Source of the DNA: Bacteriovoracia bacterium
GTDB taxonomy: Bacteria > Bdellovibrionota > UBA1018 > JBFWNL01
Length of the DNA stretch: 64,000 bases
Direction of reading: 5' to 3'
Assembly: GCA_050251055.1 (NCBI GenBank)
Contig: JBFWNL010000007.1
Coordinates: 64,001-128,000, forward strand
Below, in pieces: positions 13,085-30,529 of the stretch (within the stretch, counting starts at the first letter, position 1; every line of letters starts with the position of its first letter). The translations under genes were made by a program, and so were the position numbers. The notes beneath the pieces are model-generated. The model was not told the DNA's origin and searched no databases. It saw nothing but the letters and a program-made list of their open reading frames with translations.

Positions 13085-13087
13085 CGC

Positions 13088-15735: not shown

Positions 15736-15751
15736 CCGTTCCTCCGCGTTG

Positions 15752-16084
15752 CTAGTTATCGATGCGTTGACCTGTCTTCATGCAGAGCTCGAAGAGCTTG
15801 TCGAAGGGGTACATCCCGGTGTTGTGTAGGTCGCTCCAGTTCACCCGGATGGCGTAGCGTCCGACCAGCTCCACCGCCGTGGGCTTCACGGTTGCCACGA
15901 TCGACTCCCGTTTCAGCGTCCGCACGCCGGTCATCTCATCCACGCAGTTGGCGCAGGGGCAGTGGAAGCGCAGCTCGAAGTAGGGGAGCAAGAAGCGTTC
16001 TCCAGTGTTCCACTCCATGAGCATTTCACGGTCGCTGTGCTTTTCGATGCGGTTGGGGATGAGGTCAGCCATGAACTCAAACAA
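15752..16084 (-). CDS. DUF971 family (gamma-butyrobetaine hydroxylase N-terminal-like) protein
   Basis: LRFHCPCANC, VGRYAIRVNWSDLHNTGMY motifs. Confidence 0.9.
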   Translation of the reverse strand: MFEFMADLIPNRIEKHSDREMLMEWNTGERFLLPYFELRFHCPCANCVDEMTGVRTLKRESIVATVKPTAVELVGRYAIRVNWSDLHNTGMYPFDKLFELCMKTGQRIDN

Positions 16085-17107: not shown

Positions 17108-18223
17108 ATGAGCTCATCGCAAAAAACGCTTCGCGGCGCGGTTATCGGCTACGGTTTCATCTCAGGCAAAGGCCATATCCCGGCCTACCTCGAGCGTGCT
17201 CAAAAGCAGCAGGATGTCCAGATCACGGCGGTGGCCGACATCTGCGAGGGCCGGCGCAAGATCGCGGCCGAAACCCTGCCTGGCGTGCGCGTTTACAGTG
17301 ACTACGAATCGCTGCTCGCCGGCGAAACCGGCAAGCTTGATTTCGTCGATATCTCCACGCCTCCTTGTGACCACGCGAAGATCGCGCACGCGGCGTTTGA
17401 TCGCGGCTTACACGTGCTTTGCGAAAAGCCCCTGACCACTTCCTTGGAAGACGCCCGTGCGCTTTTGAAACATGCTCAGGACGCCCAGCGCGTGCTTTTC
17501 CCTTGTCACAACTACAAGCATGCGCCCGTGGTGAAAGCTATTCGCGAGATCATCGACAGCGGCAAGATCGGCCGCGTGAAGTCGGTGGCGCTCAGCACCT
17601 ACCGCAACACGCACGCCAAGGGCGTGACCGAATGGAACACGCACTGGCGCCGCGAAAACCGCTACAGTGGCGGCGGCATCGCGATGGACCACGGTAGCCA
17701 TAGCTTTTATTTGATGTTCGATTGGCTGGGATCGTATCCCACCGCGGTCACGGCGAAGATGTCGACCCAAGGCACGAAGCCCGATGGTTCGCCCATGGAC
17801 ACGGAAGATAATTTCACCGCGACGCTCACGTTCCCTACGGGCTCGGCCCACGCCTACCTGACTTGGACGGCGGGCGTGCGCAAGGTCATTTACAGCATTC
17901 AAGGCGAGCGCGGCGCGGTCACCGTCGATGACGACGATCTCCAGCTGGCGACTATCGAAAAAACCTCCGGCCCCGACGTCGCCCAAGGCGCCGTGAAATG
18001 GAACGTCGAGAAGCGCTCGATCGCTTCGCATTGGATGGATGCGAGCCACGTAAGCTGGTTTAACTCGCTTTTTGATCAATTCAAGGGCGCCATCGCGCGC
18101 GGCGAATTCGTGGGAAAAGAAGCCCGCGAGTCGTATCTCTGCATCGAGCTCATCATGGCCGCTTACGCTTCGGCCGCCGATCGGTGCCAGGAACAGCCTC
18201 TTTTGGGCTTGCCCACCGCGTAA
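17108..18223 (+). CDS. Gfo/Idh/MocA-family oxidoreductase
   Basis: IGYGFIS Rossmann motif, CEKP, GGGIAMDHGSH. Confidence 0.92.
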   Translation: MSSSQKTLRGAVIGYGFISGKGHIPAYLERAQKQQDVQITAVADICEGRRKIAAETLPGVRVYSDYESLLAGETGKLDFVDISTPPCDHAKIAHAAFDRGLHVLCEKPLTTSLEDARALLKHAQDAQRVLFPCHNYKHAPVVKAIREIIDSGKIGRVKSVALSTYRNTHAKGVTEWNTHWRRENRYSGGGIAMDHGSHSFYLMFDWLGSYPTAVTAKMSTQGTKPDGSPMDTEDNFTATLTFPTGSAHAYLTWTAGVRKVIYSIQGERGAVTVDDDDLQLATIEKTSGPDVAQGAVKWNVEKRSIASHWMDASHVSWFNSLFDQFKGAIARGEFVGKEARESYLCIELIMAAYASAADRCQEQPLLGLPTA

Positions 18224-18355
18224 TTTTGGGTGGATTGCCCAAAACGGGGTTTTGCCGCCTTTTCTGATCAAAATGCTGGGTGATTATGGCCTTGCGCTCT
18301 GGGGCTCCGTGGACTAATTCACTTAGGTTTCAAATCCATAAGGAGCATTCATAGC

Positions 18356-19723
18356 ATGGCTCAGCCAACGACCCAGTCGAGTACAAAGAAAAGCACGGCC
18401 CGCAACATTACACCCGCCAAAGGGAAGCTCGCGGTTCTCACTCCCGGCATGGGGGCGGTGGCCACTACTTTTTACGCCGGCGTCGAAGCCGTCAAGAAAG
18501 GCATCTCGCAGCCAATCGGTTCGTACACTCAGCTCGGCAAGATTCGTTTGGGCAAGCGTACGGAGAATCGTCATAAGCTGGTGAAGGATCTCGTACCGCT
18601 CGCTTCGCTCGATCAGCTGGTGTTCGGTGGCTGGGACATTTTCCCCGAGAACGCTTACGAAGCCGCGAAGAACGCGCAAGTGCTCGAAAAAGAATTGCTG
18701 GAAGCCGTGAAGGAACCGCTCTCGAAGATCAAGCCAATGGCGGCTGTTTTCGATCACGAGTTCGTGAAGCGCATCGACGGCCCGAACGTCAAGAAGGGCG
18801 CCAACAAGATGGAGCTCGCCGAACAGCTCCGCGCCGACATCCGTAATTTCATGAAAGACAACGGCTGCGATCGCGCCGTGATGGTTTGGTGCGCGTCCAC
18901 CGAAGTGTATACGCCGCCTACGGCCGTGCACCAGTCGGTGAAGGCTTTCGAAGAAGGCCTGCGTAACAACGATCCTTCGATCTCGCCCGCGCAGATCTAC
19001 ACGTACGCCGCGCTGAAAGAGCGGGTGCCCTACGCCAACGGATCGCCGAACGTGTCGGTCGAAATGCCCTGCCTGCAGGAGCTGGCCAACGAAATGGCTA
19101 CCCCGATCTCGGGTTCGGATTTCAAGACGGGTCAAACGTTGTTGAAGACCGTCATCGCTCCCGGCCTGCGCAACCGCCAGTTGGGCGTCGCTGGCTGGTA
19201 CAGCACCAACATCCTCGGTAACCGCGATGGCGAAGTGCTCGATGATCCGGGCTCGTTCAAGTCGAAGGAAGTCACCAAGAGCGGCGTGCTCACGGACATC
19301 TTCTCGGCGGAAATGTACCCCGAGCTCTACAAAGACATCCACCACGTGGTCCGCATCAATTACTACCCACCACGCGGCGATAATAAAGAAGGCTGGGACA
19401 ACATCGACATCTTCGGTTGGCTGGGCTACCCGATGCAGATCAAGGTGAACTTCCTCTGCCGCGACTCCATTTTGGCCGCCCCGATCGTGCTCGATCTGGC
19501 GCTGTTCATGGATCTCGCGTCGCGCGCCGAAATGCGCGGCATTCAAGAGTGGCTTTCGTTCTACTTCAAATCGCCGGTCGTGAAACCGGGCCTGCGCGCC
19601 GAGCATGATCTGTCGACGCAGCTCCTGAAGCTCGAGAACACGTTGCGCTTCTTCACCAACGAAGAGCTCATCAATCACTTGGGCCTCACGCATTACGGCA
19701 TCGACGAAGGCGAAAACGCCTAA
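18356..19723 (+). CDS. ino1: Inositol-3-phosphate synthase
   Basis: GMGAVATT, VWCASTE, ANGSPN, GSDFKTGQT, NILGNRDG, NFLCRDSILAAPIVLDL, FYFKSP; SD AAGGAG. Confidence 0.96.
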   Translation: MAQPTTQSSTKKSTARNITPAKGKLAVLTPGMGAVATTFYAGVEAVKKGISQPIGSYTQLGKIRLGKRTENRHKLVKDLVPLASLDQLVFGGWDIFPENAYEAAKNAQVLEKELLEAVKEPLSKIKPMAAVFDHEFVKRIDGPNVKKGANKMELAEQLRADIRNFMKDNGCDRAVMVWCASTEVYTPPTAVHQSVKAFEEGLRNNDPSISPAQIYTYAALKERVPYANGSPNVSVEMPCLQELANEMATPISGSDFKTGQTLLKTVIAPGLRNRQLGVAGWYSTNILGNRDGEVLDDPGSFKSKEVTKSGVLTDIFSAEMYPELYKDIHHVVRINYYPPRGDNKEGWDNIDIFGWLGYPMQIKVNFLCRDSILAAPIVLDLALFMDLASRAEMRGIQEWLSFYFKSPVVKPGLRAEHDLSTQLLKLENTLRFFTNEELINHLGLTHYGIDEGENA

Positions 19724-19745
19724 TAACGAAGGCGAAAACGCTTAA
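19704..19745. repeat. Tandem 20-bp duplication of the ino1 3' end
   Basis: ACGAAGGCGAAAACGCCTAA (19704-19723) and ACGAAGGCGAAAACGCTTAA (19726-19745), 19/20 identical. Confidence 0.9.
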
Positions 19746-19749
19746 GGTG

Positions 19750-20685
19750 CTAGCGACCCGAGTTCTTTAGGTATCGAATCACGTGTTCGACATCCATTCC
19801 TTTCGGCGGAGGGTTGCGTTCGAATAGGTTTCTAACGACCTCCTCTAGACGTCGTCCGTCCAGGAGACGGATAAAGTGGTATATGTAGGGGTCTTTCTTC
19901 GCTGCTAGTTCTTGGAGAGCTTCCACAATTTTGGGTTCTTGCGCTTTCGAGAAGTGAGATGCGTGCCCGGCTGCGACGTCATACACGGCTCGGAAAATAT
20001 CCGTAGGGGATGCTGTGTCGACGTTCATCAACCACGCTTCTCCGGCAAGAAACTTTTCGAGTGCTCCAGGGACAGCCTCTTCGATGACTACGGTTCCTTT
20101 GGGCTGGGTCTTGAATCGGAGTAAGCTCCGCGGGGTCATGGGTGCCTGGTTAGCAGACGCTTTGAATTCTCGGGCGCCGATGACGCCAAGAATTAGACTG
20201 GGAGCTTGGTCGATCACGAATGGGCTATCAAGTTCTGTCGCGATCGCGGTCGCCCGTTGTAAGATTGCAGACTCGGGGGTTCCGTCCCCCCTAAATGAAA
20301 AGGCGTGCACGACGTCGACGTCACCGCCAGCTCGGAAAGTGCCCGAACTGGACGAACCCACGATTTGTATACCGATGCCCTCTGACTCCAATCTGTCTAA
20401 GTAGGCCACGAAGGAGGGGTCGTAGACTTCGTGTGCATCTTGCCGTGATAAAATAACCGCCGAGCGCCCATTTTTCCCATAGGGAGCCAGCCGCTGCCTG
20501 GAGCGGGTAATCAGTTTCTCGGTTGAAGCGTTTAGGGGAAACAGGGAGTCGGCGGCACCATGGTCCAGGACTCTGCGGATTTTTTCTTCTGGGCAGCTTC
20601 CTAGGGCAGCGCTGTTTTGTAGGCAGAAATAGGCAAGCAGGAAAAGGCTAGGTAGGTTTCTTACGTTGATTGTAAATCGAGCCAT
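19750..20685 (-). CDS. Hypothetical exported protein lying antisense within the inositol cluster
   Basis: 311-aa ORF with hydrophobic N-terminus; looks more AT-rich than its neighbours by eye. Confidence 0.6.
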   Translation of the reverse strand: MARFTINVRNLPSLFLLAYFCLQNSAALGSCPEEKIRRVLDHGAADSLFPLNASTEKLITRSRQRLAPYGKNGRSAVILSRQDAHEVYDPSFVAYLDRLESEGIGIQIVGSSSSGTFRAGGDVDVVHAFSFRGDGTPESAILQRATAIATELDSPFVIDQAPSLILGVIGAREFKASANQAPMTPRSLLRFKTQPKGTVVIEEAVPGALEKFLAGEAWLMNVDTASPTDIFRAVYDVAAGHASHFSKAQEPKIVEALQELAAKKDPYIYHFIRLLDGRRLEEVVRNLFERNPPPKGMDVEHVIRYLKNSGR

Positions 20686-20694
20686 TCTAGTAAC

Positions 20695-20721
20695 TTATCG
20701 GTGGGAAGCCCCGCATACCTA
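20695..20721 (-). promoter_or_regulatory. sigma28-like promoter
   Basis: TAGG-N15-ACCGATAA, 9 nt before ATG 20685. Confidence 0.6.
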
Positions 20722-20846
20722 AAGAATGACGGTAAAGTGACGGTAGCATCTGCGGTAGGCAGGTTGTGCCAGGTAAGGCTATGAGATCTTAGAGGTTTTT
20801 CGCTGTTTTTTAAATGGCAGACGGGGTTTGTCGTGCTATGTTCTGA

Positions 20847-21779
20847 ATGATGCACATCGACGGAACCTTCTTTGAGTTAACCGGGGACTTGATCAACACG
20901 ATCATTTTGTTCGGTCTGCTCTTCGCCCTCATCATCGCTTACGTGATTCGTTTGGTCGTGGTGGGGCGCGCGCGCTTTGATCGCGTGGATCGGGAGGGCA
21001 CGGGTTTGCTTTTGAAGAAGGGCCCCATGGAGATGGTCTACTGGAGTTTGCAGCCTTTCGCCCGTTTGGCGGTGTTCTTTCGGGTGACGCCAAACATGCT
21101 TTCTTGGGCTTGTTTGGTTTTGGGGCTGGCGGCGGGGACTTGCTTGGCCTTCGGTCACTTTGGTTTCGGAGCGGCCTTCGCTACCGTGTCGGCGCTGCTC
21201 GACGCACTGGATGGCATGGTCGCGCGTATGACCGGACGGGCTTCCGACGCGGGCGAAGTGCTCGATGCCACCGTTGATCGCTACAGCGAATTTTTCTTTC
21301 TGGGTGGGCTTTGCGTTTATTATCGCGATATGTCCGAGCTGGTCGTGCTGACGCTGCTCGCGCTCATGGGCTCGTTCATGGTGAGCTACTCCACCGCCAA
21401 AGCGGAAGCGCTGCAGGTGAAGCCACCGCGCGGAAACATGCGGCGTACGGAGCGCGCGATTTTCATGACCGTGGGCGCCGCGCTCGCACCCATCAGCATT
21501 CCTTGGTTTGAGACGCCGGCGTACCTCAACGTGCCGGTCCCCGTGGGTTATCCCATGGTGCTTGCGGTGGGGATCATCGCCGTGCTGGCGAACTTCTCGG
21601 CGATCGAGCGCCTAGTGGCGATCGCGAAAGCCGTGCGCGCACGGGAAAACCAGGCACGTGAGCAGCTCAAGCAAGCGGAAGCGCTCACGGAAGCCCGGCA
21701 GGAGCTTGAGCAGATTGCCGGCTCTGACGACGCCGAAGCCGCGCCCGCGAACGCCACCAGCCGGTCGCCCAAGGTCTAG
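20847..21779 (+). CDS. CDP-alcohol phosphatidyltransferase (phosphatidylinositol-phosphate synthase-like)
   Basis: TPNMLS; DALDGMVAR-x8-GEVLDATVDR signature; SFMVSY..AKAEA; RTER. Confidence 0.92.
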   Translation: MMHIDGTFFELTGDLINTIILFGLLFALIIAYVIRLVVVGRARFDRVDREGTGLLLKKGPMEMVYWSLQPFARLAVFFRVTPNMLSWACLVLGLAAGTCLAFGHFGFGAAFATVSALLDALDGMVARMTGRASDAGEVLDATVDRYSEFFFLGGLCVYYRDMSELVVLTLLALMGSFMVSYSTAKAEALQVKPPRGNMRRTERAIFMTVGAALAPISIPWFETPAYLNVPVPVGYPMVLAVGIIAVLANFSAIERLVAIAKAVRARENQAREQLKQAEALTEARQELEQIAGSDDAEAAPANATSRSPKV

Positions 21780-21846
21780 GTCCACCAAAACCCCTATTTT
21801 ATCGGGCTATTTTTCCCGCCATGAAGTATATCCGGGCGGTTAGCCT

Positions 21847-23214
21847 ATGGAAATCCAGCAGCCGAAAAATCAAAAGCCCGTCTTGAAAACCCCCGTGCCT
21901 GGACCGAAGAGCCAAGCGATTCGTGCCCGTGAGGAGCAAGCGCTTGCCCCCGGCTTACAAGGCTTTGCGCTCATGGCGGGCATCGTGGTCGACGAGGCTC
22001 GCGGCAGCGCCGTGACGGATGTCGACGGCAACACTTTTCTCGACATCATTGGCGGTATCGGCGTGAACGGACTGGGCCACTCACACCCTAAGTTCGTCGA
22101 AGCGATCCAGAAGCAGGTGGCGAAGGCTTCGGTGGGGAGCTTCACTTCGGAAGCGCGCGTGCGCTTGTTCGAGCAGCTTTCGAAAAATCGCCCGACCCCC
22201 TCGGTGTATCGCACGCAACTTTATTCCGGAGGCGCGGAAGCGGTGGAGAGCGCGCTGAGGCTCGCGAAGTGCCATACCGGCAAGTACGAGTTCATCAGTT
22301 TTTGGGGCGGGTTCCACGGCAAAACCATGGGTGTGCTATCGCTCATGGGCTCGGACTTTAAAAATGGCCTCGGCCCGATGGTGCCGGGTTCGCACATTGT
22401 CCCATACGCGAACTGTTATCGCTGTCCCTTTCAGTTAAAGAATCCAAGCTGCGGCATGGCCTGCGTGGAGCATCTGCGCAAACACGTTAAGCTGGGGACC
22501 GCGGGCGCGGTCGCGGGCATCATCGCCGAGCCTATGCAGGGCACGGCCGGAAATGTGATTCCGCCGAATGACTTCTTGCCCGCCGTGGCGGAAGTGGCGA
22601 AGGAGATCGGCGCGCTCATGATCATCGACGAAATGATCACGGGCTTTGGTCGCACGGGTAAGTACTGGGGCGCCCACCATTCGGGTGTGCAGGCCGATAT
22701 CGTCACGCTCGGTAAGCAATTCGGAGGTGGTTTTCCGATGTCGGCCGTGATGACTACGGATGACATCTCAAAGGCGCAGCCCTGGAGCGTTCCCTCGGGG
22801 TCTTCTTCCAGCTACGGCGGAAACCCGTTGGGCGCGGCGGCCGGCGCGGCGGCGCTCACAATCATCGAGGAAGAGGGATTGGTCGAGAACTCCCGTAAAA
22901 TGGGGGATTATTTCCTGGGCAAGCTCAAGCCCTTCGAGGAAAAATACTCCTTTATCGGCGAGGCGCGGGGAGCGGGACTTTTCCTGGCGCTCGAGATGGT
23001 TCGCGACAAGGTGACGAAGGAGCCGCTCAGCAAAAAGGCGTGTCAGCGTGTTTTCACCGAGTGCCTCAAGCGTGGATTGCTCACCATGGCTTACGCGCCA
23101 AGTTTCCGCATTCAACCCGCGATGTCCATCGATACCGGCACCATCGATGCCGCCGTGGGCGTGCTGGAAGAAGTTTTCGACTTAATGGAAAAAGAAAAAC
23201 TTTGGCAGGCGTAG
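21847..23214 (+). CDS. Class III PLP-dependent aminotransferase
   Basis: SGGAEAVE, GFHGKT, EPMQG, IDEMITGFGRTG, TLGK (PLP Lys), SYGGNP. Confidence 0.92.
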   Translation: MEIQQPKNQKPVLKTPVPGPKSQAIRAREEQALAPGLQGFALMAGIVVDEARGSAVTDVDGNTFLDIIGGIGVNGLGHSHPKFVEAIQKQVAKASVGSFTSEARVRLFEQLSKNRPTPSVYRTQLYSGGAEAVESALRLAKCHTGKYEFISFWGGFHGKTMGVLSLMGSDFKNGLGPMVPGSHIVPYANCYRCPFQLKNPSCGMACVEHLRKHVKLGTAGAVAGIIAEPMQGTAGNVIPPNDFLPAVAEVAKEIGALMIIDEMITGFGRTGKYWGAHHSGVQADIVTLGKQFGGGFPMSAVMTTDDISKAQPWSVPSGSSSSYGGNPLGAAAGAAALTIIEEEGLVENSRKMGDYFLGKLKPFEEKYSFIGEARGAGLFLALEMVRDKVTKEPLSKKACQRVFTECLKRGLLTMAYAPSFRIQPAMSIDTGTIDAAVGVLEEVFDLMEKEKLWQA

Positions 23215-23256
23215 GCGCCTGCCTTTGGGGGTCCTGATCGGGTCCCCAAGGGAGCG

Positions 23257-26200
23257 CTAGTGCGCGTTCACTTCGCGCTCGTGCCCGGCCTCGAGGTAAG
23301 CTTCGGAACCGTGGCGATGGGTGCGCTCCCGGTATTCGCCGACGGTTTCCACGACCAAGTAGATCAGAATCGCGTAGGCCGAACCCCACATCAGATCCAG
23401 GATGTAGTGGTGGTTGAGGTACACGGCCGAAAAGCACATCAGCAAGTAGAAGAAGACGCAGAAACGCCGCAGGGATCCAAATTTGTATGCGTAAAGCACC
23501 GAGATCAGCGGATAAGCCACATGCAAAGATGGGATGGCGCCGAAGACGTCGGCTGCACGCCCGTACATCTCGCTAAAAAAGTGGGTGCCGAGGATCTGAT
23601 CGAAGCGCGCGGCGCCCGCCGAACTCGCGGGCACGTCGAGACGGGCGGGGCCTAATCCGTACTGAGCCACGTACCAGGGCGGCGCGGCCGCGTACCAGTA
23701 GTAGGTCGAGTAGCCCAGGCAGTTGGTCCAAAAGAACGTCCACATCATGCGGGGAGCCTTGCGCACGATCTCCCGCGCGGAATATTTATGCGTCCCGTGG
23801 AAGCCCAGCCAGAACATGAAGTAGGCGGCGCTGAAGACGAAGAGCGCGACGAAAACCAGGTAGGCGAAGCCGGTAACGAGGTCGAGCGCCGGATGCGTAT
23901 GTAGCTGCCACCACTCGTTAGGGGTAAGCACGCCCTTCGCGGTTTGGATGCCAAAGAAACGCTTATCGAAGAGATACGGCTCCTTCACGTGGATCGGCCC
24001 CCGCAGCCAGTCGGCATAAAAACGCTGGCTGTCGTAGACGATGCCCACGAGGAATACGGGTAGCAGGAACTTCAAGAACTCCCGGGTCGGTTTGCCGAGG
24101 TAAGCTAGCGCCAGCATCAATCCCGAAATGAGCAGGTGATCGGAGCGCAGGCCTCCGAGCGCAAGGAGGGAAAGCACGTACCCCGCGATCAGCCCCAGCG
24201 GCATCCAGCGCTCGCGCGGCGAAAGCGATCGCCACCACGCGGGCCAGCGGAAGATCCAGTCCCAGCCGCGGTAACGTAGCAAACGGCCCCAAACCTGGAG
24301 CGGCTCCATGATCCGGAAGCGAACTTTTGGGCGGGCATTTTCGATCTGCAGCTTTTCGGAGTCGCGATAGTAAAGGTAAGCCGGTAAGGCGATCATCGCC
24401 GCGAGCAGGGTGGTGATTTCACCCAAGACCGCGAGCTTACCGAAGCTAACGAAAGCCTGGTTGCCGGCGATGAGGAGCGATCCGTAACCGACGACCGTCG
24501 TGAGGCTCGCCATGCCGACGGCGCTGCCGGTGCTGCGGATTACCCCCAAGATGCTGCCCCGGCCATCGAGGCGGTAACGCTGGAAGATATTTACGCCGTA
24601 GTCGACGCCGATACCGAAGGTGATGGGGAGCGCGATGAAGTTCAGGAAATTGATCTTGAAATCGAAACCCAGGATCACGCCCGCCATCCAGGTTACCCCC
24701 AGGATCAGTGAGAAGAGGCAGAGCGAGATCAAGCGCGCGCTCCGGAAAAGCGCGATCACGAGCAGGATCACGGCGCCGAAGGCGAAGAGCGTGGCCCGAG
24801 GTCCGTCACGCTTAATGGCGTCGATCATGTCGGCGGTCACGGGGAATTGACCGGCTACCGGGATGCCGGGCGTGACCTTGTCCGCCACCGCGCGCAGGTC
24901 GCGGACGAACTGCAGGAGCTTGTTGCTGTCCTTCGTGGGGTTGGTCACCGGCGGTTCCACCAACACGAGATTGCCCACGGCCCCGCTTTTTTCCGTGAAC
25001 TTGCGCAATACCATCGGCGGCAGATCCTGGACGGACACCGGTACGTAGCTTTCCTCGTTCAGAAACTCGGACGCGAGTTTCTTTTCCTCGGGCGAGAGCG
25101 CGGACAGAATGCGCGGCGTGAGCTGCGACTTGATTTGGCGCAGGACCCGGATCTTTTCCGGCTGGCCCAAGGGCACGAAATCGTCGATTGAGTAAACGGA
25201 AGCGATCAGGCTCTGGCTGCCCTGAGACCTCTGCAGTTTCTTGGCTTCTTCCGCCACGCGCACGGCCTCCGCCTTGGTGTGCGGCATGATTACGGTGGGC
25301 GAGAGCCAGCGCTGGAAGACCTCGTCGATGCGTTTGGAGAGAAACGCCGAGCCCTGCTCGATGCTGCGTTTATCACGCAGTTTTTCCAGGTTGGTTTCCA
25401 GGATGGCGTCGCTGTAGCTAAAGAAGGTGATGAGCGAGACGACGGTCAGCGCGAAAGTCAGGCCCCAGATCGGGCGGGAAAACTTACGAATGAGCCAGAT
25501 GATGGGCTCGGCGAAAAACTGGAATGGCTTGGGGTCGCCAGGAAGCTCGCGCTTTACTCGGATCGGCAGGATGCGGTGCCAGACCGTGAGAAGGGCCGGC
25601 AGCAGCGTGTAGGCCGAAATCCAGCAGATCACCATGCCGATGAGGCCGATCACGCCGAATTGCTTGAAGCCGCGGAAGCTGGTGAGCATGAGCGATCCGT
25701 AGGAAAGCCCTGCCGCCAGCGCGGCGACCAGGGTCGCGGTATAGGTCTGAGTCAGGGCGAGGTGCACGCCGCGAATGTTTCCATTGCCCTTGCGGCGCTC
25801 CTCCATGTAGCGCGCGAGGTAGATAATGCCGAAGTTGATGCCGTTGCCGATGACGATCGAGCCCAGGAACGCGGAGTTGGCGTTAAGGTAGCCCACCGCG
25901 AAGAACGAAACGCCGAAGGTCGCCAGGGTGCCGATGAATAGGCTCACCATGAGCGCGAAGACCCCGCCGATCGTTCGGTAGTAAACGAGCATGAAAACCG
26001 TGCACAGGATTACTACGATGATCGTAGAGAGCTCGAGATCCTCCATGAGCGAATGATGCTCTTCGATGAGGTTCTGGACGCTGCCGGAAAACTTCACGTC
26101 CAGCCCCGCCCCGTATTTGGCTTCGTTGCCCTTCGGGTCGAGACCGGCGATAGCTTGATCGACGGCGTGACGAAGGCGTTCGGCCCCATCGATGCCTGAG

Positions 26201-26805
26201 GCGGCCCCCGGTAGATCGACGAGTAGAATACGGATCGTCTCGTCTTGATTGGCGTAATAGCCGTTCGGGAAGTGGGAGTAAGACGATGTCTTCTGGTTGT
26301 ATTTCGCCCGCATGGCGTCGAAATCGAGCTTGGGCTCCGGAATCTCGGTGGTCCGGAAAATATTCAAGGGGTTGTAGAGTTCTTTTTCGTAGCTGATGCG
26401 GTCGCGGATGTAGGTTCGGATGGAGGTGAGATCATCGATCTCCATGTAAAGTGCCTTGCGCGAATCAAAGAACTTCAGCTCATCGGTGATCTTATACTCG
26501 GTACCGGCGACGATGGACTTTGGGACTTGCTTCAGGCGGTCGACCAGATCGTGCAGGAATCGGAGACTGCCCTTGGGGTTGGGCGAAAAAATCAGCACCG
26601 CGAGATTCTCGGTGGACTCGAGCCGTTCGGTCACTTCCTTGAGATCGATGACGCTGCGAGCGTCCGTGGGCAAAAGCTCTTCGATGTTTGTCCGGAGATT
26701 CTTGTAAAGCTGGATCGAGTAATAGCCACCCCAGATAGCGATGAGCAACCCGATGATGCAGATCAGCCCGGCTCGTTTGAGCACTAGGCGGGAGTAGAAA
26801 TTCAC
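23257..26805 (-). CDS. MMPL/RND-family transporter fused to a C-terminal Aur1-like (IPC synthase/PAP2) domain
   Basis: Two RND halves (IGNGINFGII; FGIGVDYGVNI), then AAPPWY, AGAARFD, FGAIPSLH and YLNHHYILDL in a single 1182-aa frame. Confidence 0.88.
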   Translation of the reverse strand: MNFYSRLVLKRAGLICIIGLLIAIWGGYYSIQLYKNLRTNIEELLPTDARSVIDLKEVTERLESTENLAVLIFSPNPKGSLRFLHDLVDRLKQVPKSIVAGTEYKITDELKFFDSRKALYMEIDDLTSIRTYIRDRISYEKELYNPLNIFRTTEIPEPKLDFDAMRAKYNQKTSSYSHFPNGYYANQDETIRILLVDLPGAASGIDGAERLRHAVDQAIAGLDPKGNEAKYGAGLDVKFSGSVQNLIEEHHSLMEDLELSTIIVVILCTVFMLVYYRTIGGVFALMVSLFIGTLATFGVSFFAVGYLNANSAFLGSIVIGNGINFGIIYLARYMEERRKGNGNIRGVHLALTQTYTATLVAALAAGLSYGSLMLTSFRGFKQFGVIGLIGMVICWISAYTLLPALLTVWHRILPIRVKRELPGDPKPFQFFAEPIIWLIRKFSRPIWGLTFALTVVSLITFFSYSDAILETNLEKLRDKRSIEQGSAFLSKRIDEVFQRWLSPTVIMPHTKAEAVRVAEEAKKLQRSQGSQSLIASVYSIDDFVPLGQPEKIRVLRQIKSQLTPRILSALSPEEKKLASEFLNEESYVPVSVQDLPPMVLRKFTEKSGAVGNLVLVEPPVTNPTKDSNKLLQFVRDLRAVADKVTPGIPVAGQFPVTADMIDAIKRDGPRATLFAFGAVILLVIALFRSARLISLCLFSLILGVTWMAGVILGFDFKINFLNFIALPITFGIGVDYGVNIFQRYRLDGRGSILGVIRSTGSAVGMASLTTVVGYGSLLIAGNQAFVSFGKLAVLGEITTLLAAMIALPAYLYYRDSEKLQIENARPKVRFRIMEPLQVWGRLLRYRGWDWIFRWPAWWRSLSPRERWMPLGLIAGYVLSLLALGGLRSDHLLISGLMLALAYLGKPTREFLKFLLPVFLVGIVYDSQRFYADWLRGPIHVKEPYLFDKRFFGIQTAKGVLTPNEWWQLHTHPALDLVTGFAYLVFVALFVFSAAYFMFWLGFHGTHKYSAREIVRKAPRMMWTFFWTNCLGYSTYYWYAAAPPWYVAQYGLGPARLDVPASSAGAARFDQILGTHFFSEMYGRAADVFGAIPSLHVAYPLISVLYAYKFGSLRRFCVFFYLLMCFSAVYLNHHYILDLMWGSAYAILIYLVVETVGEYRERTHRHGSEAYLEAGHEREVNAH

Positions 26806-26895
26806 CCTCGAGAGTTAACCTGAGTGACGGCGTCCGCAAAGCAGTTTCAGCAATTAGCGTTGTGTTTCCGCCTATTTTGGTCTTTACTATTGGTC

Positions 26896-27678
26896 GTGAA
26901 TCTCTGTCAGTTACTCGTGCGCTGGACCAAGCGATTGGGCGAATTTATGCTCTTCGTCAACGAGACGATCAAAGTCTTTCCGGGTCTGTGGAAGCGCCGC
27001 GACTTGTTCTTCCGTCAGTGTGAATTTATCGGAGTGACTTCGACAGGTATTATTCTCGTGGCGGCGCTCTTTATGGGTGCTGTTTTAGGTTATCAACTTT
27101 ACGTGTCATTTCATTACTTTGGTGCCGAGGCTTTACTCGGCGGAAGCGTCGGGGTGGCACTCTTCCGGGAGCTGGCTCCCGTCATGGGCGCGGTGATGGT
27201 GACCGGGCGGGCGGGCGCGGCGATGGCCGCTGAGATCGCCAGTATGCGAATCTCCGAACAGATCGACGCGCTCGAGGTCATGGCGATCGATCCGATGGAA
27301 TACCTCGTGGCTCCGCGGGTGGTGGCGGGCGTTTGCATGATGCCGCTTCTGTCCGTCCTTTTCGCGGGCATCGCTTCGCTTGCGGCCGCGGGCGTGGCCT
27401 GCGGAGTGATGGGATTGAGCACGCCGGTCTATTGGAGTCAGTTTTCCAAAGTGGTCGATCCGATCGAGCTCACCCATTGCGTGACCAAGGGAGCGATGTT
27501 CGGGTTGGTGCTGACCTGGGTGGGTTGTTTCTATGGGTTTCGTGCGCACGGGGGCGCCTACGCGGTAGGCAAGGCCACACGTACGACGGTGGTGGTGAGC
27601 TGTCTCACGATTCTGCTCTCGGATTACGTGCTGACGTCGCTACTTCCATTTGGATTTGCCAGACTGATTGCCGAATGA
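26896..27678 (+). CDS. mlaE: MlaE-family lipid ABC permease
   Basis: RELAPV, GRAGAAMAAEIASMRISEQIDALEVMAIDP, VGKATRTTVV; start uncertain (26824-26947). Confidence 0.92.
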   Translation: MNLCQLLVRWTKRLGEFMLFVNETIKVFPGLWKRRDLFFRQCEFIGVTSTGIILVAALFMGAVLGYQLYVSFHYFGAEALLGGSVGVALFRELAPVMGAVMVTGRAGAAMAAEIASMRISEQIDALEVMAIDPMEYLVAPRVVAGVCMMPLLSVLFAGIASLAAAGVACGVMGLSTPVYWSQFSKVVDPIELTHCVTKGAMFGLVLTWVGCFYGFRAHGGAYAVGKATRTTVVVSCLTILLSDYVLTSLLPFGFARLIAE

Positions 27679-27706
27679 CCGATTGCAGAATAGAAAGAGT
27701 ACGACT

Positions 27707-29197
27707 ATGGCAGGCGAAAACATCCGAACCGTAAAAATCAAAGTGGGCCTCTTCTCCTTGGCCGGACTGGCGCTGATCGGCGTGATCACCGTCTTCGTGA
27801 ACGATCGCCCCTTCTGGTGGCGGGGGTGCGAGTTGGTGCACGTGAACATCGAGGATGCCACGGGCCTAAAGACGAAATCCCCCATCCGTTCGCTCGGGTT
27901 GCAGATCGGGTACCTTCATTCGGTCGAGCTCTTTCAGCAGCAGGTCCGTTTGGGGATTTGCATCACCGCGCCGGTGGAAGTGCTGCCGGACACGCGCGCC
28001 TATGTGAAGGGCGAAGGTTTCTTGGGCGACAAATTCGTGGAGCTAAAGCCCGTGAAGTACGTTGGGCAATCGCGCGATGAGACGTTGAACGACGCAGCTC
28101 CCTCGCAGACCTCGACTCCCGCGCCGGCGCAAACCTGGGCACCCAGCCGGCCGATCCACCCATTGCTTTGGGCGATGGGGTGGGGCGTGGACGCGGCTTG
28201 GGCGGCCAAAACCAACGTGAACGTGGCCGAGGCGAAGGATAGCCGCAAGGAGATCCCGGTCGGTGAAAAGAGCCAAGACGTGCAGGAGTTGGTGAACGAG
28301 GTCAACGGCCTCGTGGGCGAACTCTCCGTGCTCACGAACAATCTCAAAACGTCGCTCAACCCGGTCGACATGCAGCGCACGATGCAGAAGTTGAATCGTA
28401 CGCTTGAGAACGCGGCGAAAACGCTTTCGCCGGAAGGCAATCTCACCACTACGGCCCAACGCGCGCTCGCGAAACTCGAAGACGCCATCGAGCAGATGCG
28501 CGACATGGTGACGCGAATCAACCAGGGCGAAGGCTCGGTGGGCATGGTGATCAACGACCCCAGCTATGCCGAGGAGCTGCGCGATGCCCTCCGGAATTTG
28601 AATTCGCTGCTTTCGAAGGTGAGCGGCGTACGTTTCCAGGTGGATGTCGGAGCGGAAGCTTTGCCGGCTTACAGCGATGCGCGGGGCTGGTTCCGGTTGG
28701 GCATCTGGCCGTCGGCCGACCGCTACTATCTGCTCGGTTTGTCGGTCGATCCGCGCGGGAAAACCAATGTGCTGGACGTCACCACCACGGCGGGCACGGC
28801 TAGCACCACGACTCGTTCGGTAACCACTGAGCAAGGAGGCATCCTGCTCACCGCGATGTTGGGTAAGGTGTTTTGGCACCGGCTTGATTTTTCGGCCGGC
28901 ATCTATCACGGGGACGCCACGCTGGGCGTGGCTTTCAATCTGGGACCGCAGACCAATGAGGAGCTGCTCCGGGTGGAGGCGCAGGGGTTTAGCGGCGCGG
29001 ATGGAAGGGGCGGCCACCAGTTCGACGGCCGCGCGAACGCCATCTGGTTTCCGTCGCAGAGCCCTTACCTGAAGACGATTTACATCCGCGGCGGGGTGGA
29101 TTCGGTTCGCCAGGTAAACGGAAAGTTTTCGTATTCGGTGGGCGCCGGCATCTCGTTCAACGACCGGGACATCAAGATGCTCTTCGCGCTCCGCTAG
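27707..29197 (+). CDS. MlaD/MCE-domain protein with helical stalk and beta-rich C-terminal domain
   Basis: IKVGLF transmembrane anchor; DATGLK...GLQIG...GFLGDKFVEL MCE motifs; GEGSVGMVIND. Confidence 0.88.
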   Translation: MAGENIRTVKIKVGLFSLAGLALIGVITVFVNDRPFWWRGCELVHVNIEDATGLKTKSPIRSLGLQIGYLHSVELFQQQVRLGICITAPVEVLPDTRAYVKGEGFLGDKFVELKPVKYVGQSRDETLNDAAPSQTSTPAPAQTWAPSRPIHPLLWAMGWGVDAAWAAKTNVNVAEAKDSRKEIPVGEKSQDVQELVNEVNGLVGELSVLTNNLKTSLNPVDMQRTMQKLNRTLENAAKTLSPEGNLTTTAQRALAKLEDAIEQMRDMVTRINQGEGSVGMVINDPSYAEELRDALRNLNSLLSKVSGVRFQVDVGAEALPAYSDARGWFRLGIWPSADRYYLLGLSVDPRGKTNVLDVTTTAGTASTTTRSVTTEQGGILLTAMLGKVFWHRLDFSAGIYHGDATLGVAFNLGPQTNEELLRVEAQGFSGADGRGGHQFDGRANAIWFPSQSPYLKTIYIRGGVDSVRQVNGKFSYSVGAGISFNDRDIKMLFALR

Positions 29198-30517: not shown

Positions 30518-30529
30518 TCCTTTTGAGAG

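What the first reader, a model, noticed from the sequence alone, without database searches (positions are those of the whole stretch)
17108..29197. Candidate biosynthesis-and-export system for an inositol or amino-inositol phospho(sphingo)lipid
Seen: dehydrogenase, ino1, CDP-alcohol phosphatidyltransferase and class III aminotransferase on +, converging on an MMPL-Aur1 fusion that is divergent from mlaE-mlaD. Known: Ino1 makes inositol-3-P; CDP-alcohol transferases make PI or PIP; Aur1-type enzymes move phosphoinositol from PI to ceramide; MMPL and MCE proteins move lipids; inositol lipids are rare in Gram-negatives (Bacteroidetes, myxobacteria). Inference: one locus covers head-group synthesis, modification, transfer and trans-envelope trafficking. 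No serine palmitoyltransferase or dedicated PIP phosphatase is present in this window.
Basis: partly seen in the sequence, partly recalled or inferred. Interest (0 to 1): 0.88.

Follow-up and report, generated by a model that had tools for sequence, protein, structure and literature searches.

The report
Inositol-lipid cluster with synthase-exporter fusion
A predatory-bacterium-type genome carries a conserved gene cluster that most likely builds an inositol-headed (probably amine-modified) membrane sphingolipid, and its last enzyme is fused to a lipid export pump, giving a testable candidate for how such lipids leave the inner membrane.

Summary
Window 17108-29197 holds a GFO/IDH/MocA oxidoreductase, myo-inositol-phosphate synthase (MIPS), a PIP-synthase-type CDP-alcohol transferase (PIPS), a class III aminotransferase (AT3), a 1182-aa HpnN-like MMPL transporter fused to an Aur1-type PAP2_3 domain, and mlaE-mlaD.

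The genes are co-conserved. In 121 genomes of the same class, AT3 and GFO co-occur (60 both, 4 and 3 alone, 54 neither). 61 of 64 AT3 genomes have MIPS, and 64 of 68 PAP2_3 genomes have MIPS.

AT3 lies beside PAP2_3 in three different orientations. MMPL sits directly upstream of PAP2_3, unfused, in most relatives. The fusion itself is rare.

A serine palmitoyltransferase candidate with an adjacent GNAT gene, and one PgpA gene, lie elsewhere in the genome.

Best reading (confidence about 0.6): a Bacteroides/yeast-like inositol phosphoceramide pathway with an added OH-to-NH2 head-group module, and a transferase physically coupled to an RND lipid exporter.

Caveats:
- No lipid was measured.
- The MMPL family is far wider than PAP2_3 (104 against 68 of 121 genomes).
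- The MlaED link is weaker.

I rate it a new variant of a known kind.

The parts
17108..18223 (+). GFO/IDH/MocA-family NAD(P) oxidoreductase, predicted cytoplasmic. Proposed to oxidise one inositol hydroxyl to a ketone.
   Evidence: Pfam PF01408, PF22725 and PF02894. All NCBIfam hits are far below cut-off, including IolG at 60 bits. Best PDB hit 72 bits; scyllo-inositol dehydrogenase 65 bits. No TM segment or signal peptide. Co-occurs with AT3: 60 genomes both, 4 and 3 alone, 54 neither, of 121.
18356..19723 (+). myo-Inositol-phosphate synthase (MIPS/Ino1).
   Evidence: PF07994 1.8e-98 and PF01658 5.7e-33. 81-90% identical orthologues in 17 of 80 related loci. Present in 64 of 68 PAP2_3-bearing genomes.
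19750..20685 (-). 311-aa ORF of no known family with a lipoprotein-like N-terminus. Probably an insertion, not part of the conserved cluster.
   Evidence: No Pfam or NCBIfam hit. No homologue in 80 related loci. Single copy, GC 0.54 against 0.58-0.61 for its neighbours.
20847..21779 (+). PIP-synthase-type CDP-alcohol phosphatidyltransferase (PIPS), with an extra N-terminal TM helix.
   Evidence: PF01066. NCBIfam inositol-phosphate transferase families are the best hits, below cut-off. Best PDB hit is mycobacterial PgsA1, 6h5a, 7.6e-14. It carries the motif DX2DGX2AR...GX3DX3D that PMC9246714 (section 6) quotes for PIPS (residues 119-127 and 136-144).
21847..23214 (+). Class III (GABA-AT/ArgD-like) PLP aminotransferase, predicted cytoplasmic. 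Proposed keto-inositol(-phosphate) aminotransferase.
   Evidence: PF00202 2.1e-92. No NCBIfam cut-off reached. Nearest paralogue in the genome is 30% identical. Orthologues at 60-79% identity lie beside PAP2_3 in 44 of 80 loci, in three orientations. Adjacent to MIPS in 9 of 9 genomes of family f13.
23204..23223 (-). GC-rich hairpin followed by a T run, between the convergent stop codons of AT3 and the fusion gene. Terminator-like.
   Evidence: It heads the terminator list (8 pairs, 7 of them G-C). The scan as a whole is not above chance (23 found against 17.2 +/- 4.6).
23257..24225 (-). C-terminal Aur1-type PAP2_3 phosphotransferase module of the fusion (about aa 861-1182). Proposed phospho-inositol/inosamine:ceramide transferase.
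   Evidence: NF052609 1.2e-55 and PAP2_3 5.6e-13. Invariant PSLH and NHHYxxD, which align with the same motifs of yeast AUR1. Top Foldseek hits are Aur1 9ivc_A (2.8e-6) and 9vj4_A (7.4e-6).
24226..24360 (-). Basic linker (about aa 816-860) with an internal Met at aa 832, where the stand-alone PAP2_3 gene would have started.
   Evidence: Junction alignment. Low pLDDT at 826-837.
24361..26805 (-). HpnN-like MMPL (HAE3 RND) lipid transporter module of the fusion: 12 TM helices and two periplasmic domains.
   Evidence: PF03176, TIGR03480 1e-78. Hydropathy. AF2 model pLDDT 89.1. Best fold match HpnN 5khn, E 1.5e-26, TMt 0.70.
26824..27678 (+). MlaE-family permease, divergent from the fusion gene.
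   Evidence: PF02405 2.1e-69; TIGR00056 233 bits, above its cut-off of 212. Beside MMPL in 12 of 80 loci.
27668..29197 (+). 509-aa MlaD/MCE-domain protein with an N-terminal TM anchor and a long C-terminal extension.
   Evidence: PF02470 1.7e-09. TM at aa 26-44. No Walker-A ORF within 5-6 kb.

Best explanation
The locus encodes the head-group branch of an inositol phospholipid / phosphosphingolipid pathway of the Bacteroides BT_1522-1526 / yeast Aur1 type, with two additions.

Steps shown by homology:
- MIPS makes inositol phosphate.
- A PIPS-type enzyme joins it to CDP-diacylglycerol.
- An Aur1-type PAP2_3 transferase moves the phospho-head group from the glycerolipid to an acceptor.

Inferred steps:
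(a) The acceptor is ceramide, made by the Spt and GNAT genes on another contig.
(b) The PIP intermediate is dephosphorylated by an enzyme outside the cluster; the single PgpA is the candidate.
(c) The cytoplasmic GFO oxidoreductase and class III aminotransferase together replace one ring hydroxyl by an amine. This probably happens before the PIPS step, and would give an inosamine rather than inositol head group.
(d) The PAP2_3 active site faces the periplasm, and the product is handed to the covalently attached HpnN-like RND pump for extraction from the inner membrane towards the outer membrane.
(e) The ATPase-less MlaE/MCE pair next door may take part in that traffic.
For: Family assignments:
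- The profile of the PAP2_3 domain finds only AUR1 in the PDB, E 1.2e-20, with PSLH and HHYxxD aligned.
- The two best fold matches of the PAP2_3 domain are Aur1 structures.
- The best fold match of the MMPL part is HpnN.

Clustering in 80 related loci:
- AT3 is present in 44, PIPS in 35, MMPL in 30, GFO in 22 and MIPS in 17.
- Among the 43 loci with at least 5 kb on both sides, the counts are AT3 23, PIPS 21, MMPL 16, GFO 15 and MIPS 11.
- All 15 of those loci that have GFO also have AT3.
- MMPL lies directly upstream of PAP2_3 on the same strand, with a gap of 39-219 nt in most loci.

Phyletic profiles over 121 class genomes:
- AT3 and GFO: 60 both, 4 and 3 alone, 54 neither.
- 61 of 64 AT3 genomes have MIPS.
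- 64 of 68 PAP2_3 genomes have MIPS.
- 5 of 5 genomes whose clusters lack MIPS carry it elsewhere.

MIPS-AT3 linkage in other families:
- MIPS and AT3 are adjacent in 9 of 9 genomes of family f13, where GFO is unlinked but present.
- MIPS-PIPS-AT3 operons occur in families f7 and f8.

Ceramide supply:
- The Spt candidate's best PDB hits are serine palmitoyltransferases at 410 bits, against 347 and 282 bits for BioF/KBL enzymes.
- A GNAT gene lies directly downstream of it.

The fusion:
- It is real and recurs in 3 other proteins at 47-58% identity.

Substitutions linked to AT3 status:
- PAP2_3 and PIPS from genomes without AT3 carry excess substitutions at positions conserved in AT3-bearing loci. 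For PAP2_3 the total is 58, against mean 18.2 and maximum 40 in 2000 random picks of five AT3+ rows. For PIPS it is 88, against mean 20.3 and maximum 67 in 2000 random picks of four.
- PIPS E137 inside GX3DX3D becomes Ala in 3 of 4 AT3-less lineages. Ala is also the residue in mycobacterial PgsA1.

Other:
- GFO and AT3 have no TM segment or signal peptide.
- No squalene-hopene cyclase was found in the genome, so a hopanoid role for the pump is unlikely.
Against: - No lipid, transcript or enzyme activity was examined.
- All the specific NCBIfam equivalog cut-offs are missed: PI-DHC synthase 189 of 480 bits, the PIPS families, HpnN 265 of 752.
- GFO and AT3 give no substrate-specific match. Known inosose aminotransferases belong, from recall, to another family (DegT/StsC).
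- No PIP phosphatase is in the cluster.
- MMPL homologues occur in 104 of 121 class genomes against 68 for PAP2_3, so the pump family is not specific to this lipid.
- Spt-like genes are nearly universal in the class (112 of 121), so their presence does not discriminate.
- Family f13 has MIPS, AT3 and GFO but no PAP2_3 hit. The aminated cyclitol therefore need not end on ceramide.
- PAP2_3 sequences from AT3-less genomes are scattered among AT3-bearing ones. The substitution excess could reflect faster evolution of those lineages: the control kept no branch lengths, and n is only 5 and 4 lineages.
- D932, the best co-varying PAP2_3 position, is also Asp in yeast AUR1, which handles plain inositol.
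- The domain orientation in the AF2 model is uncertain because the linker has pLDDT below 50.
- The periplasmic placement of the active site rests on hydropathy and the positive-inside rule only.
Confidence: 0.6

Rival explanations
1. The cluster makes a plain inositol lipid. MIPS, PIPS and PAP2_3 make ordinary PI and inositol phosphoceramide as in Bacteroides. GFO and AT3 make a separate, soluble aminocyclitol (a solute or small metabolite) from the same inositol pool and sit nearby only because they share the precursor.
For: - Family f13 (9 of 9 genomes) has MIPS-AT3 adjacent and GFO elsewhere, but no PAP2_3 hit.
- 10 genomes have MIPS and PAP2_3 without AT3 or GFO, so the transferase works without them.
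- PAP2_3 from AT3-less genomes is not a separate clade.
Against: - AT3 is the closest neighbour of PAP2_3: it is present in 44 of 80 loci, often within 10-700 nt, in three different orientations.
- 48 of 49 genomes with an AT3 orthologue at 59% identity or more have PAP2_3.
- MIPS-PIPS-AT3 operons in families f7 and f8 put AT3 next to a membrane lipid enzyme.
- PIPS and PAP2_3 show AT3-linked substitutions.
- In f13 the MIPS-AT3 pair lies in one direction with MlaC and an outer-membrane efflux protein, which again points to lipid traffic.
Confidence: 0.2
2. The acceptor is not ceramide. The PAP2_3 module transfers the head group to another acceptor, or it acts as the missing lipid phosphatase that turns PIP into PI. 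The end product would then be a glycerophospholipid (phosphatidyl-inositol or phosphatidyl-inosamine).
For: - No PIP phosphatase is in the cluster, and PAP2 is a phosphatase superfamily.
- The NF052609 cut-off is missed (189 of 480 bits).
- Spt is nearly universal in the class, so it gives no specific link.
Against: - The only significant PDB relative by sequence is the IPC synthase AUR1, and the two best fold matches are Aur1 structures, one of them with ceramide bound. The phosphatases PgpB and B. subtilis PgpB score E above 1.
- The closest curated family is the Bacteroides enzyme whose deletion removes PI-DHC but not PI-DAG (PMC9246714, section 6, read).
- A PgpA gene exists elsewhere in the genome for the phosphatase step.
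Confidence: 0.12
3. The MMPL pump is a general envelope-lipid exporter of the class. Its adjacency and fusion to PAP2_3 reflect shared membrane location or co-expression, not hand-over of this product. mlaE-mlaD are an unrelated neighbour.
For: - MMPL homologues are found in 104 of 121 class genomes, many without PAP2_3 or MIPS, and often in 2-3 copies.
- Only 30 of 80 PAP2_3 loci show MMPL nearby, and 12 show MlaE.
- Only 1 of 68 PAP2_3-bearing class genomes has the fusion.
Against: - Where MMPL is present it lies directly upstream, on the same strand, 39-219 nt from PAP2_3 in most loci.
- The fusion is kept in at least 4 proteins down to 47% identity.
- MIPS-PIPS-AT3 operons also lie next to an MMPL where PAP2_3 is elsewhere (L092, L095).
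- The window's MMPL is the only copy in its genome.
Confidence: 0.25

Closest known systems
Bacteroides thetaiotaomicron inositol lipid cluster BT_1522-BT_1526 (Heaver et al. 2022, PMC9246714; sections 6 and 10 read)
   Same: It has MIPS, a PIPS with the same DX2DGX2AR...GX3DX3D motif, and a PAP2_3 PI-dihydroceramide synthase. NF052609, the NCBIfam family named phosphoinositol dihydroceramide synthase (the role the paper gives BT_1522), matches at 1.2e-55. The genes are clustered.
   Different: - No PgpA-type PIP phosphatase is in the cluster here.
- A GFO oxidoreductase and a class III aminotransferase are added.
- The synthase is fused to, or in relatives directly follows, an MMPL transporter.
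- The phylum is different (Bdellovibrionota-type relatives).
- All equivalog cut-offs are missed.
- The paper has no occurrence of MMPL, aminotransferase, fusion or Bdellovibrio (word search).
Yeast Aur1 (catalytic subunit of inositol phosphorylceramide synthase; PDB 9ivc, 9vj3, 9vj4)
   Same: Aur1 is the only significant PDB relative of the C-terminal domain by profile (E 1.2e-20 over about 250 residues) and its best fold match. The PPWY, PSLH and HHYxxD motifs are shared.
   Different: Identity is 24%. No Kei1-like partner was identified. Here the domain is bacterial and is the C-terminal module of an RND transporter.
HpnN hopanoid transporter / MmpL lipid exporters (HAE3 RND; PDB 5khn, 6wu0, MmpL3-5)
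   Same: It has the 12-TM, two-periplasmic-domain architecture. HpnN is the best fold match (E 1.5e-26, TMt 0.70). The best NCBIfam family is HpnN.
   Different: Identity is 17-19%, and the HpnN cut-off is missed (265 of 752 bits). No squalene-hopene cyclase was found in the genome. It carries a lipid-synthase domain, which none of the listed structures has.
MmpL gene next to spt in Myxococcus xanthus, proposed as a sphingolipid exporter (bioRxiv 10.64898/2026.04.12.717747; discussion passage read)
   Same: An MMPL-family pump is genetically linked to sphingolipid synthesis in a related deltaproteobacterial-type lineage. It is a hypothesis only.
   Different: There the link is to spt and is untested. 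Here the link is to the head-group transferase, and it is a covalent fusion. The transporters demonstrated in that preprint are LptFG paralogues in Caulobacter.
Oxidoreductase + aminotransferase pairs that turn a ring hydroxyl into an amine (inositol dehydrogenase + inosose aminotransferase of aminocyclitol pathways; GnnA/GnnB of lipid A). Recalled from memory, not from a call.
   Same: The logic of a GFO/IDH/MocA dehydrogenase followed by a PLP aminotransferase is the same.
   Different: The aminotransferase here is class III (PF00202), not the DegT/StsC type. The substrate is unknown. The product is predicted to be lipid-bound.

Membership tests
Aur1 / PI-dihydroceramide synthase type PAP2_3 phosphotransferase | PAP2_3 domain above the Pfam gathering score | tested here: met
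   PF14378 at 49.6 bits against a cut-off of 27, aa 966-1150.
Aur1 / PI-dihydroceramide synthase type PAP2_3 phosphotransferase | Catalytic His/His/Asp motifs (SxH and HHYxxD) | tested here: met
   S1093, H1095, H1132, H1133 and D1137 are invariant in 20 of 20 sequences. They align with the same motifs of AUR1. The catalytic role of these residues is recalled, not tested.
Aur1 / PI-dihydroceramide synthase type PAP2_3 phosphotransferase | Aur1-like fold | tested here: met
   Foldseek ranks 1-2 are Aur1 9ivc_A (2.8e-6) and 9vj4_A (7.4e-6), TM 0.59-0.67. SMSr scores 0.32 and the PgpB-type phosphatases score above 1. The model has pLDDT 78.7 and weak loops.
Aur1 / PI-dihydroceramide synthase type PAP2_3 phosphotransferase | NCBIfam equivalog score for NF052609 | tested here: not met
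   189.1 bits against a cut-off of 480: a homologue, not an equivalog by NCBI's rule.
Aur1 / PI-dihydroceramide synthase type PAP2_3 phosphotransferase | Transfers phosphoinositol from PI to ceramide | not testable with these tools
   Needs an enzyme assay or lipidomics.
Bacteroides-type inositol lipid gene cluster | MIPS + PIPS + PgpA-type PIP phosphatase + PI-DHC synthase encoded together | tested here: not met
   Three of the four are present in the cluster. The only PgpA (PF04608, 5.9e-33) lies on contig C3.
PIP synthase (CDP-alcohol phosphatidyltransferase acting on inositol phosphate) | Motif DX2DGX2AR...GX3DX3D, with inositol-phosphate transferases as best relatives | tested here: met
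   Residues 119-127 and 136-144. The best PDB hits are PgsA1/PIPS entries. The top four NCBIfam hits are all inositol-phosphate transferases.
PIP synthase (CDP-alcohol phosphatidyltransferase acting on inositol phosphate) | NCBIfam equivalog cut-offs | tested here: not met
   116 of 180, 101 of 350 and 96 of 170 bits.
HpnN / MMPL (HAE3 RND) lipid transporter | MMPL domains, 12 TM helices, two periplasmic domains, HpnN-like fold | tested here: met
   PF03176 with two stretches. Hydropathy. AF2 model pLDDT 89.1. HpnN is the top fold match.
HpnN / MMPL (HAE3 RND) lipid transporter | HpnN proper: equivalog score and a hopanoid pathway in the genome | tested here: not met
   TIGR03480 at 265 of 752 bits. 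No PF13243 hit in the 93.5%-complete genome.
Mla (MlaFEDCB) phospholipid transport system | MlaE permease and MlaD MCE protein | tested here: met
   TIGR00056 at 233 bits, above its cut-off of 212. PF02470 at 38.2 bits, above 25.1.
Mla (MlaFEDCB) phospholipid transport system | Cognate ABC ATPase (MlaF) encoded with them | tested here: not met
   No Walker-A ORF within 5-6 kb in the window, whereas the C3 paralogue has one. None in 11 of 11 related loci. The test is motif-based.
Inosose aminotransferase of aminocyclitol pathways (DegT/DnrJ/EryC1/StrS family; recalled) | DegT-type fold-type I aminotransferase domain | tested here: not met
   Only PF00202 (class III) was found. If it aminates an inosose, it does so as an analogue, not as a member.
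Bacterial ceramide synthesis (Spt, bCerS, CerR) | Serine palmitoyltransferase in the genome | tested here: inconclusive
   The best NCBIfam hit is SerpalmtaseCFB at 502 bits, under its cut-off of 640. The best PDB hits are SPT 8guh/3a2b at 410 bits, against 347 for BioF/KBL. A GNAT gene lies downstream. CerR was not searched.

The most novel reading that the evidence does not exclude
Many Bdellovibrionota make a lipid class not yet described: an amino-deoxy-inositol (inosamine) phosphoceramide and/or phosphatidyl-inosamine, zwitterionic rather than anionic. It would be made by a MIPS + GFO oxidoreductase + class III aminotransferase module feeding a PIPS and an Aur1-type transferase. In this lineage the transferase is covalently joined to an RND pump. 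That would be the first natural synthase-exporter fusion for a sphingolipid, and a direct handle on how bacterial sphingolipids leave the inner membrane.
Probability: 0.4. Interest if true: 0.85.

Novelty: new variant of a known kind. Interest (0 to 1): 0.72.

Why it matters
Bacterial inositol sphingolipid synthesis has been worked out in Bacteroides (PMC9246714).

[quoted passage not shown] In 2026 LptFG paralogues were reported for Caulobacter, and an MmpL route was only hypothesised for Myxococcus (bioRxiv 10.64898/2026.04.12.717747, passage read).

A conserved MMPL-then-Aur1-type gene pair, fused in this genome, gives a concrete and testable candidate for that route.

Separately, the tight co-occurrence of a dehydrogenase/aminotransferase pair with MIPS, PIPS and the transferase predicts an aminated inositol head group. 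My two literature searches found no paper that links inosamine or aminoinositol with phospholipids or sphingolipids.

If real, this would add a neutral head group to the envelope chemistry of predatory bacteria.

Tried and rejected
- Hopanoid transporter reading of the MMPL: rejected as the main reading. No squalene-hopene cyclase hit in the genome, and the HpnN cut-off is missed.

- Fusion as an assembly or frameshift artefact: rejected. Three other fused proteins at 47-58% identity exist, with a continuous junction alignment.

- Further fusions suggested by long 'open frames' (G096, G061, G082): checked and not supported. The upstream frames look non-coding or are unrelated.

- Shorter start for the fusion (the database call P0001, 1062 aa): rejected, because it would remove TM1.

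- Substrate hints for GFO and AT3 from NCBIfam and PDB sequence searches: nothing specific.

- The AT3 hit to PbfA-type lyases (283 bits) is lower than its hits to generic class III families, so I did not follow a phosphonate reading.

- The 311-aa ORF between MIPS and PIPS as a pathway member (for example a phosphatase): no family hit and not conserved.

- NCBIfam scan of the GNAT gene beside Spt: no hit. The atlas gave only 'GNAT family' clusters, so its identity as a bacterial ceramide synthase stays a guess.

- A specificity clade for PAP2_3 from AT3-less genomes: not found; those rows are scattered.

- Not done:
  - a phyletic profile for PIPS;
  - a search for CerR;
  - any expression data (look-up of sequencing runs and read laying unused);
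  - Complex prediction (unused);
  - inspection of inter-domain contacts, because model coordinates and PAE were not available to me.

- Supplementary tables of PMC9246714 were not seen and could list homologues outside Bacteroidetes.

Full report
**What is there**

- 17108-18223 (+): a GFO/IDH/MocA oxidoreductase.
- 18356-19723 (+): MIPS.
- 20847-21779 (+): a CDP-alcohol phosphatidyltransferase. Its best curated relatives are all inositol-phosphate transferases: archaetidylinositol-phosphate synthase (1.7e-33), the Bacteroides BT_1523 family (8.2e-29) and PIP synthase (2.6e-27).
- 21847-23214 (+): a class III aminotransferase (AT3).
- 23257-26805 (-): one 1182-aa ORF. It joins an HpnN-like MMPL transporter to a C-terminal domain that matches the NCBIfam family 'phosphoinositol dihydroceramide synthase' (1.2e-55) and Pfam PAP2_3.
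- 26824-27678 and 27668-29197 (+): MlaE and a 509-aa MCE protein.

None of the specific NCBIfam equivalog cut-offs is reached, so these are homologues and not certified equivalents.

It has no family, a lipoprotein-like N-terminus and a lower GC content, and it has no counterpart in relatives. I treat it as an insertion.

**The fusion protein**

Hydropathy gives the RND pattern: TM1, a periplasmic domain, TM2-6, TM7, a second periplasmic domain, and TM8-12 ending near aa 809. A basic linker follows, and then the PAP2_3 helices.

A shorter database gene call (P0001, 1062 aa) would delete TM1, so the GTG at 26805 is the better start.

An AlphaFold2 model built on 70 aligned sequences is confident (mean pLDDT 89.1, pTM 0.70) except in the linker at 826-837. 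Its best solved-structure match is the hopanoid transporter HpnN (5khn, E 1.5e-26, TMt 0.70).

A profile of the C-terminal domain finds exactly one significant family among all PDB sequences: yeast AUR1, the catalytic subunit of inositol phosphorylceramide synthase (E 1.2e-20). The PPWY, PSLH and HHYxxD stretches are aligned. A separate model of the domain (pLDDT 78.7) has Aur1 structures as its two best fold matches, while PAP2 phosphatases score E above 1. The Ser/His and His/His/Asp positions are invariant in 20 of 20 aligned homologues.

The positive-inside rule places these residues at the periplasmic face. That placement is an inference.

**Is the fusion real, and how common is it?**

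Only 4 fused proteins appeared among the best 120 of 1425 hits: the window's own and three others at 58, 57 and 47% identity. Of the other 116 listed, at least the 80 that carry a name or the 'ncbi' source tag are unfused MMPL proteins of about 800-855 aa at 53-60% identity over about 70% of the query.

The C-terminal domain has more than 2600 stand-alone homologues. The best 120 are 290-391 aa long and 56-69% identical, and several carry the source name 'inositol phosphorylceramide synthase'.

The junction alignment shows three things:
- unfused pumps stop about 10 residues after the last helix;
- stand-alone synthases start shortly before a conserved WPxWW motif;
- two of the fused proteins and the window keep a Met where the synthase gene once began.

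In 121 genomes of the class, only the window's genome has both parts in a single open frame without an internal stop (1 of 68 with the domain). G075 shows the two parts in one frame separated by one TAA. Three other long open frames were checked and are not fusions.

The fusion is therefore a lineage-specific joining of a widespread adjacent gene pair.

**Neighbourhood survey**

An alignment of the synthase domain retrieved 250 relatives from one genome per species. I analysed the 80 best loci. Most are labelled Bacteriovoracaceae, Oligoflexia, Bdellovibrionales or Pseudobdellovibrionaceae MAGs. Seven are Nitrospinota, and there are single Desulfarculia and Vicinamibacteria records.

tblastn of the window's proteins against these loci gave the following counts:

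| Gene | All 80 loci | 43 loci with at least 5 kb on both sides |
|---|---|---|
| AT3 | 44 | 23 |
| PIPS | 35 | 21 |
| MMPL | 30 | 16 |
| GFO | 22 | 15 |
| MIPS | 17 | 11 |
| MlaE | 12 | 10 |
| MlaD | 11 | 10 |

- Many of the 80 loci are short, so absences there are not informative.
- In the 43-locus subset, 14 loci had none of MMPL, AT3, PIPS, GFO or MIPS.
- All 15 loci with GFO also had AT3.
- MMPL lies directly upstream of the synthase on the same strand, 39-219 nt away in most loci.
- AT3 lies next to the synthase in convergent, tandem and divergent arrangements. That argues for selection on the pairing rather than inheritance of one operon.
- Two cluster types exist: GFO-(MIPS)-PIPS-AT3-synthase, and MIPS-PIPS-synthase without GFO or AT3.
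- In 5 of 5 genomes whose clusters lacked MIPS, MIPS was found elsewhere.

**Phyletic profiles**

Six searches over the same 121 genomes (13 family codes; the window's genome is the only member of its family) gave these numbers of genomes with a match:

| Gene | Genomes of 121 |
|---|---|
| Synthase domain (PAP2_3) | 68 |
| AT3 | 64 (49 at 59% identity or more) |
| GFO | 63 |
| MIPS | 75 |
| Spt-like | 112 |
| MMPL | 104 |

The cross-tabulations are:
- AT3 and GFO: 60 both, 4 AT3 only, 3 GFO only, 54 neither.
- AT3 and MIPS: 61 both, 3 AT3 only.
- Synthase and MIPS: 64 both, 4 synthase only. One of those four genomes is 98% complete; the others are 71-88% complete.
- Ten genomes have MIPS and the synthase without AT3 or GFO.

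These genomes are kin, so the counts are descriptive and not a statistical test.

Family f13 is instructive. All 9 genomes have MIPS immediately followed by an AT3 relative (55-58% identity), with GFO on another contig and no synthase hit. In one such locus the pair lies in one direction with MlaC and an outer-membrane efflux protein. In families f7 and f8 the operon is MIPS-PIPS-AT3, with an MMPL nearby.

The dehydrogenase/aminotransferase pair is thus bound to inositol synthesis across the whole class, whether or not the genes are linked.

**Where the amine would enter**

GFO and AT3 have no TM segment or signal peptide. If the synthase works at the periplasmic face, the modification should therefore precede it.

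Synthase sequences from genomes that lack AT3 do not form a clade: 6 rows need 5 changes of state. Five such lineages nonetheless deviate unusually often at columns conserved in AT3-bearing loci.
- Three columns (D932, A1047, I1138) change in at least 4 of 5 lineages. In 2000 random picks of five AT3-bearing sequences the mean was 0.045 such columns and the maximum 2.
- Total deviations were 58, against a mean of 18.2 and a maximum of 40.

PIPS shows the same tendency: 88 deviations against a mean of 20.3 and a maximum of 67.
- Eight columns change in at least 3 of 4 lineages, against a mean of 0.35. The maximum in the random picks was 12, so this measure is not beyond the control.
- E137, inside the GX3DX3D motif, is Ala in 3 of 4 AT3-less lineages, and Ala is also the residue in mycobacterial PgsA1.

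This is suggestive that both enzymes see the aminated head group, and that amination precedes PIPS. But the control ignores branch lengths, the lineages are few, and D932 is also Asp in yeast AUR1.

**Ceramide supply and the missing phosphatase**

The genome has two alpha-oxoamine synthases. One is clearly Kbl. The other has serine palmitoyltransferase as its best NCBIfam family (502 bits, cut-off 640) and as its best PDB relatives (8guh/3a2b at 410 bits, against 347 bits for a BioF/KBL enzyme).

A GNAT-family gene follows it. It has no curated family and only generic GNAT look-alikes. It is a candidate bacterial ceramide synthase, no more.

The Spt-like gene is nearly universal in the class. 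It therefore allows a ceramide acceptor but does not single one out.

One PgpA-family gene lies on another contig. In Bacteroides a PgpA-like protein is the PIP phosphatase (PMC9246714, section 6).

**Transport**

- For a coupling of pump and synthase: the fusion, the conserved adjacency, and MMPL genes next to MIPS-PIPS-AT3 operons.
- Against a dedicated role: MMPL homologues occur in 104 of 121 genomes, often in several copies, including many genomes without MIPS or the synthase.

The most economical reading is a class-wide envelope-lipid (perhaps sphingolipid) exporter, one copy of which has been recruited next to, and here fused with, the head-group transferase.

The mlaE-mlaD pair accompanies MMPL in 12 of 80 loci. 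It lacks an ABC ATPase both here and in 11 of 11 related loci by a motif test, whereas another MlaE paralogue in the genome has one. Its role is open.

**Literature**

- Heaver et al. 2022 (sections 6 and 10 read) define the Bacteroides pathway. They report ceramide phosphoinositol in Myxococcus from earlier work. The text has no occurrence of MMPL, aminotransferase, fusion or Bdellovibrio (word search).
- A 2024 JBC paper states that no sphingolipid flippase or transporter had been identified (passage).
- A 2026 preprint reports LptFG paralogues in Caulobacter and hypothesises an MmpL next to spt in Myxococcus (passage).
- Searches for inosamine or aminoinositol together with phospholipid, sphingolipid or phosphoceramide found nothing relevant.
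- A search on Bdellovibrio, inositol and sphingolipid gave only reviews and unrelated work, by title and abstract.
- Supplements were closed.

**Verdict**

The locus is best read as a Bdellovibrionota variant of the known inositol phosphoceramide pathway with two new features: a head-group dehydrogenase/aminotransferase module, and a synthase coupled to an RND exporter. Confidence is about 0.6 for the whole chain. It is higher for 'inositol lipid with an Aur1-type transferase' and lower for the amine, the ceramide acceptor and the export step taken individually.

It is a new variant of a known kind. Its interest lies in a predicted undescribed head group and in a concrete candidate for sphingolipid export.

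Noticed in passing
window 26824-29197, and loci L010, L014, L016, L019, L020, L027, L032, L054, L072, L073, L077: The MlaE-MlaD pair divergent from the MMPL gene has no ABC ATPase nearby. No Walker A ORF lies within 5-6 kb in the window, and no Walker A + LSGG ORF in 11 of 11 related loci. The genome's C3 MlaE paralogue does have an ATPase between MlaE and MlaD. The MCE protein is long (509 aa), with a helical stretch and a large C-terminal region of unknown kind.
   Followed up: partly
window 19750-20685 (-): A 311-aa ORF with a lipoprotein-like N-terminus, no family and GC 0.54 is inserted between MIPS and PIPS. It is absent from all 80 related loci and single copy in the genome.
   Followed up: partly
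L090 (G019:C1) 8076-12879, minus strand: In a sister family of the class, MlaC, an outer-membrane efflux protein (OEP), MIPS and the AT3 relative lie in one direction. The GFO relative is on another contig, and the PAP2_3 query found no match. The fate of the presumed aminocyclitol there is unknown.
   Followed up: partly
L092 (G034:C10) 7926-15985: A MIPS-PIPS-AT3 operon is followed by a 481-aa metallophosphoesterase/5'-nucleotidase-like protein and a convergent 955-aa MMPL. The phosphoesterase could be an alternative candidate for the PIP phosphatase step in that lineage.
   Followed up: no
L008 (G000:C6) 3969-12018: The Spt candidate and its GNAT neighbour lie a few kb from a polyprenyl synthetase, a flavin amine oxidase-type enzyme and a squalene/phytoene synthase. 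No squalene-hopene cyclase was found in the genome.
   Followed up: no
L009 (G000:C3) 1976-2989 (-): Next to the only PgpA gene lies a Rieske-type protein whose best NCBIfam hit is 4beta-methylsterol monooxygenase (6.9e-28, far below its cut-off). The MMPL also gives a weak hit to the sterol transporter BstA.
   Followed up: no
window 29369-35826: Downstream of the MCE gene lie a MIDAS-adhesin/CglD-like lipoprotein candidate (382 aa), a response regulator-PilZ protein, and a 1292-aa protein with four Big_2 domains. None is conserved next to the cluster.
   Followed up: no
loci L075, L076, L081-L083, L085, L086 (Nitrospinota), L088 (Desulfarculia), L062 (Vicinamibacteria): Aur1-type PAP2_3 homologues at 47-56% identity occur outside Bdellovibrionota. 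In the Nitrospinota loci a distant PIPS relative (28-34% identity) lies 3-7 kb away, and no AT3, GFO or MMPL was detected in the flanks.
   Followed up: no
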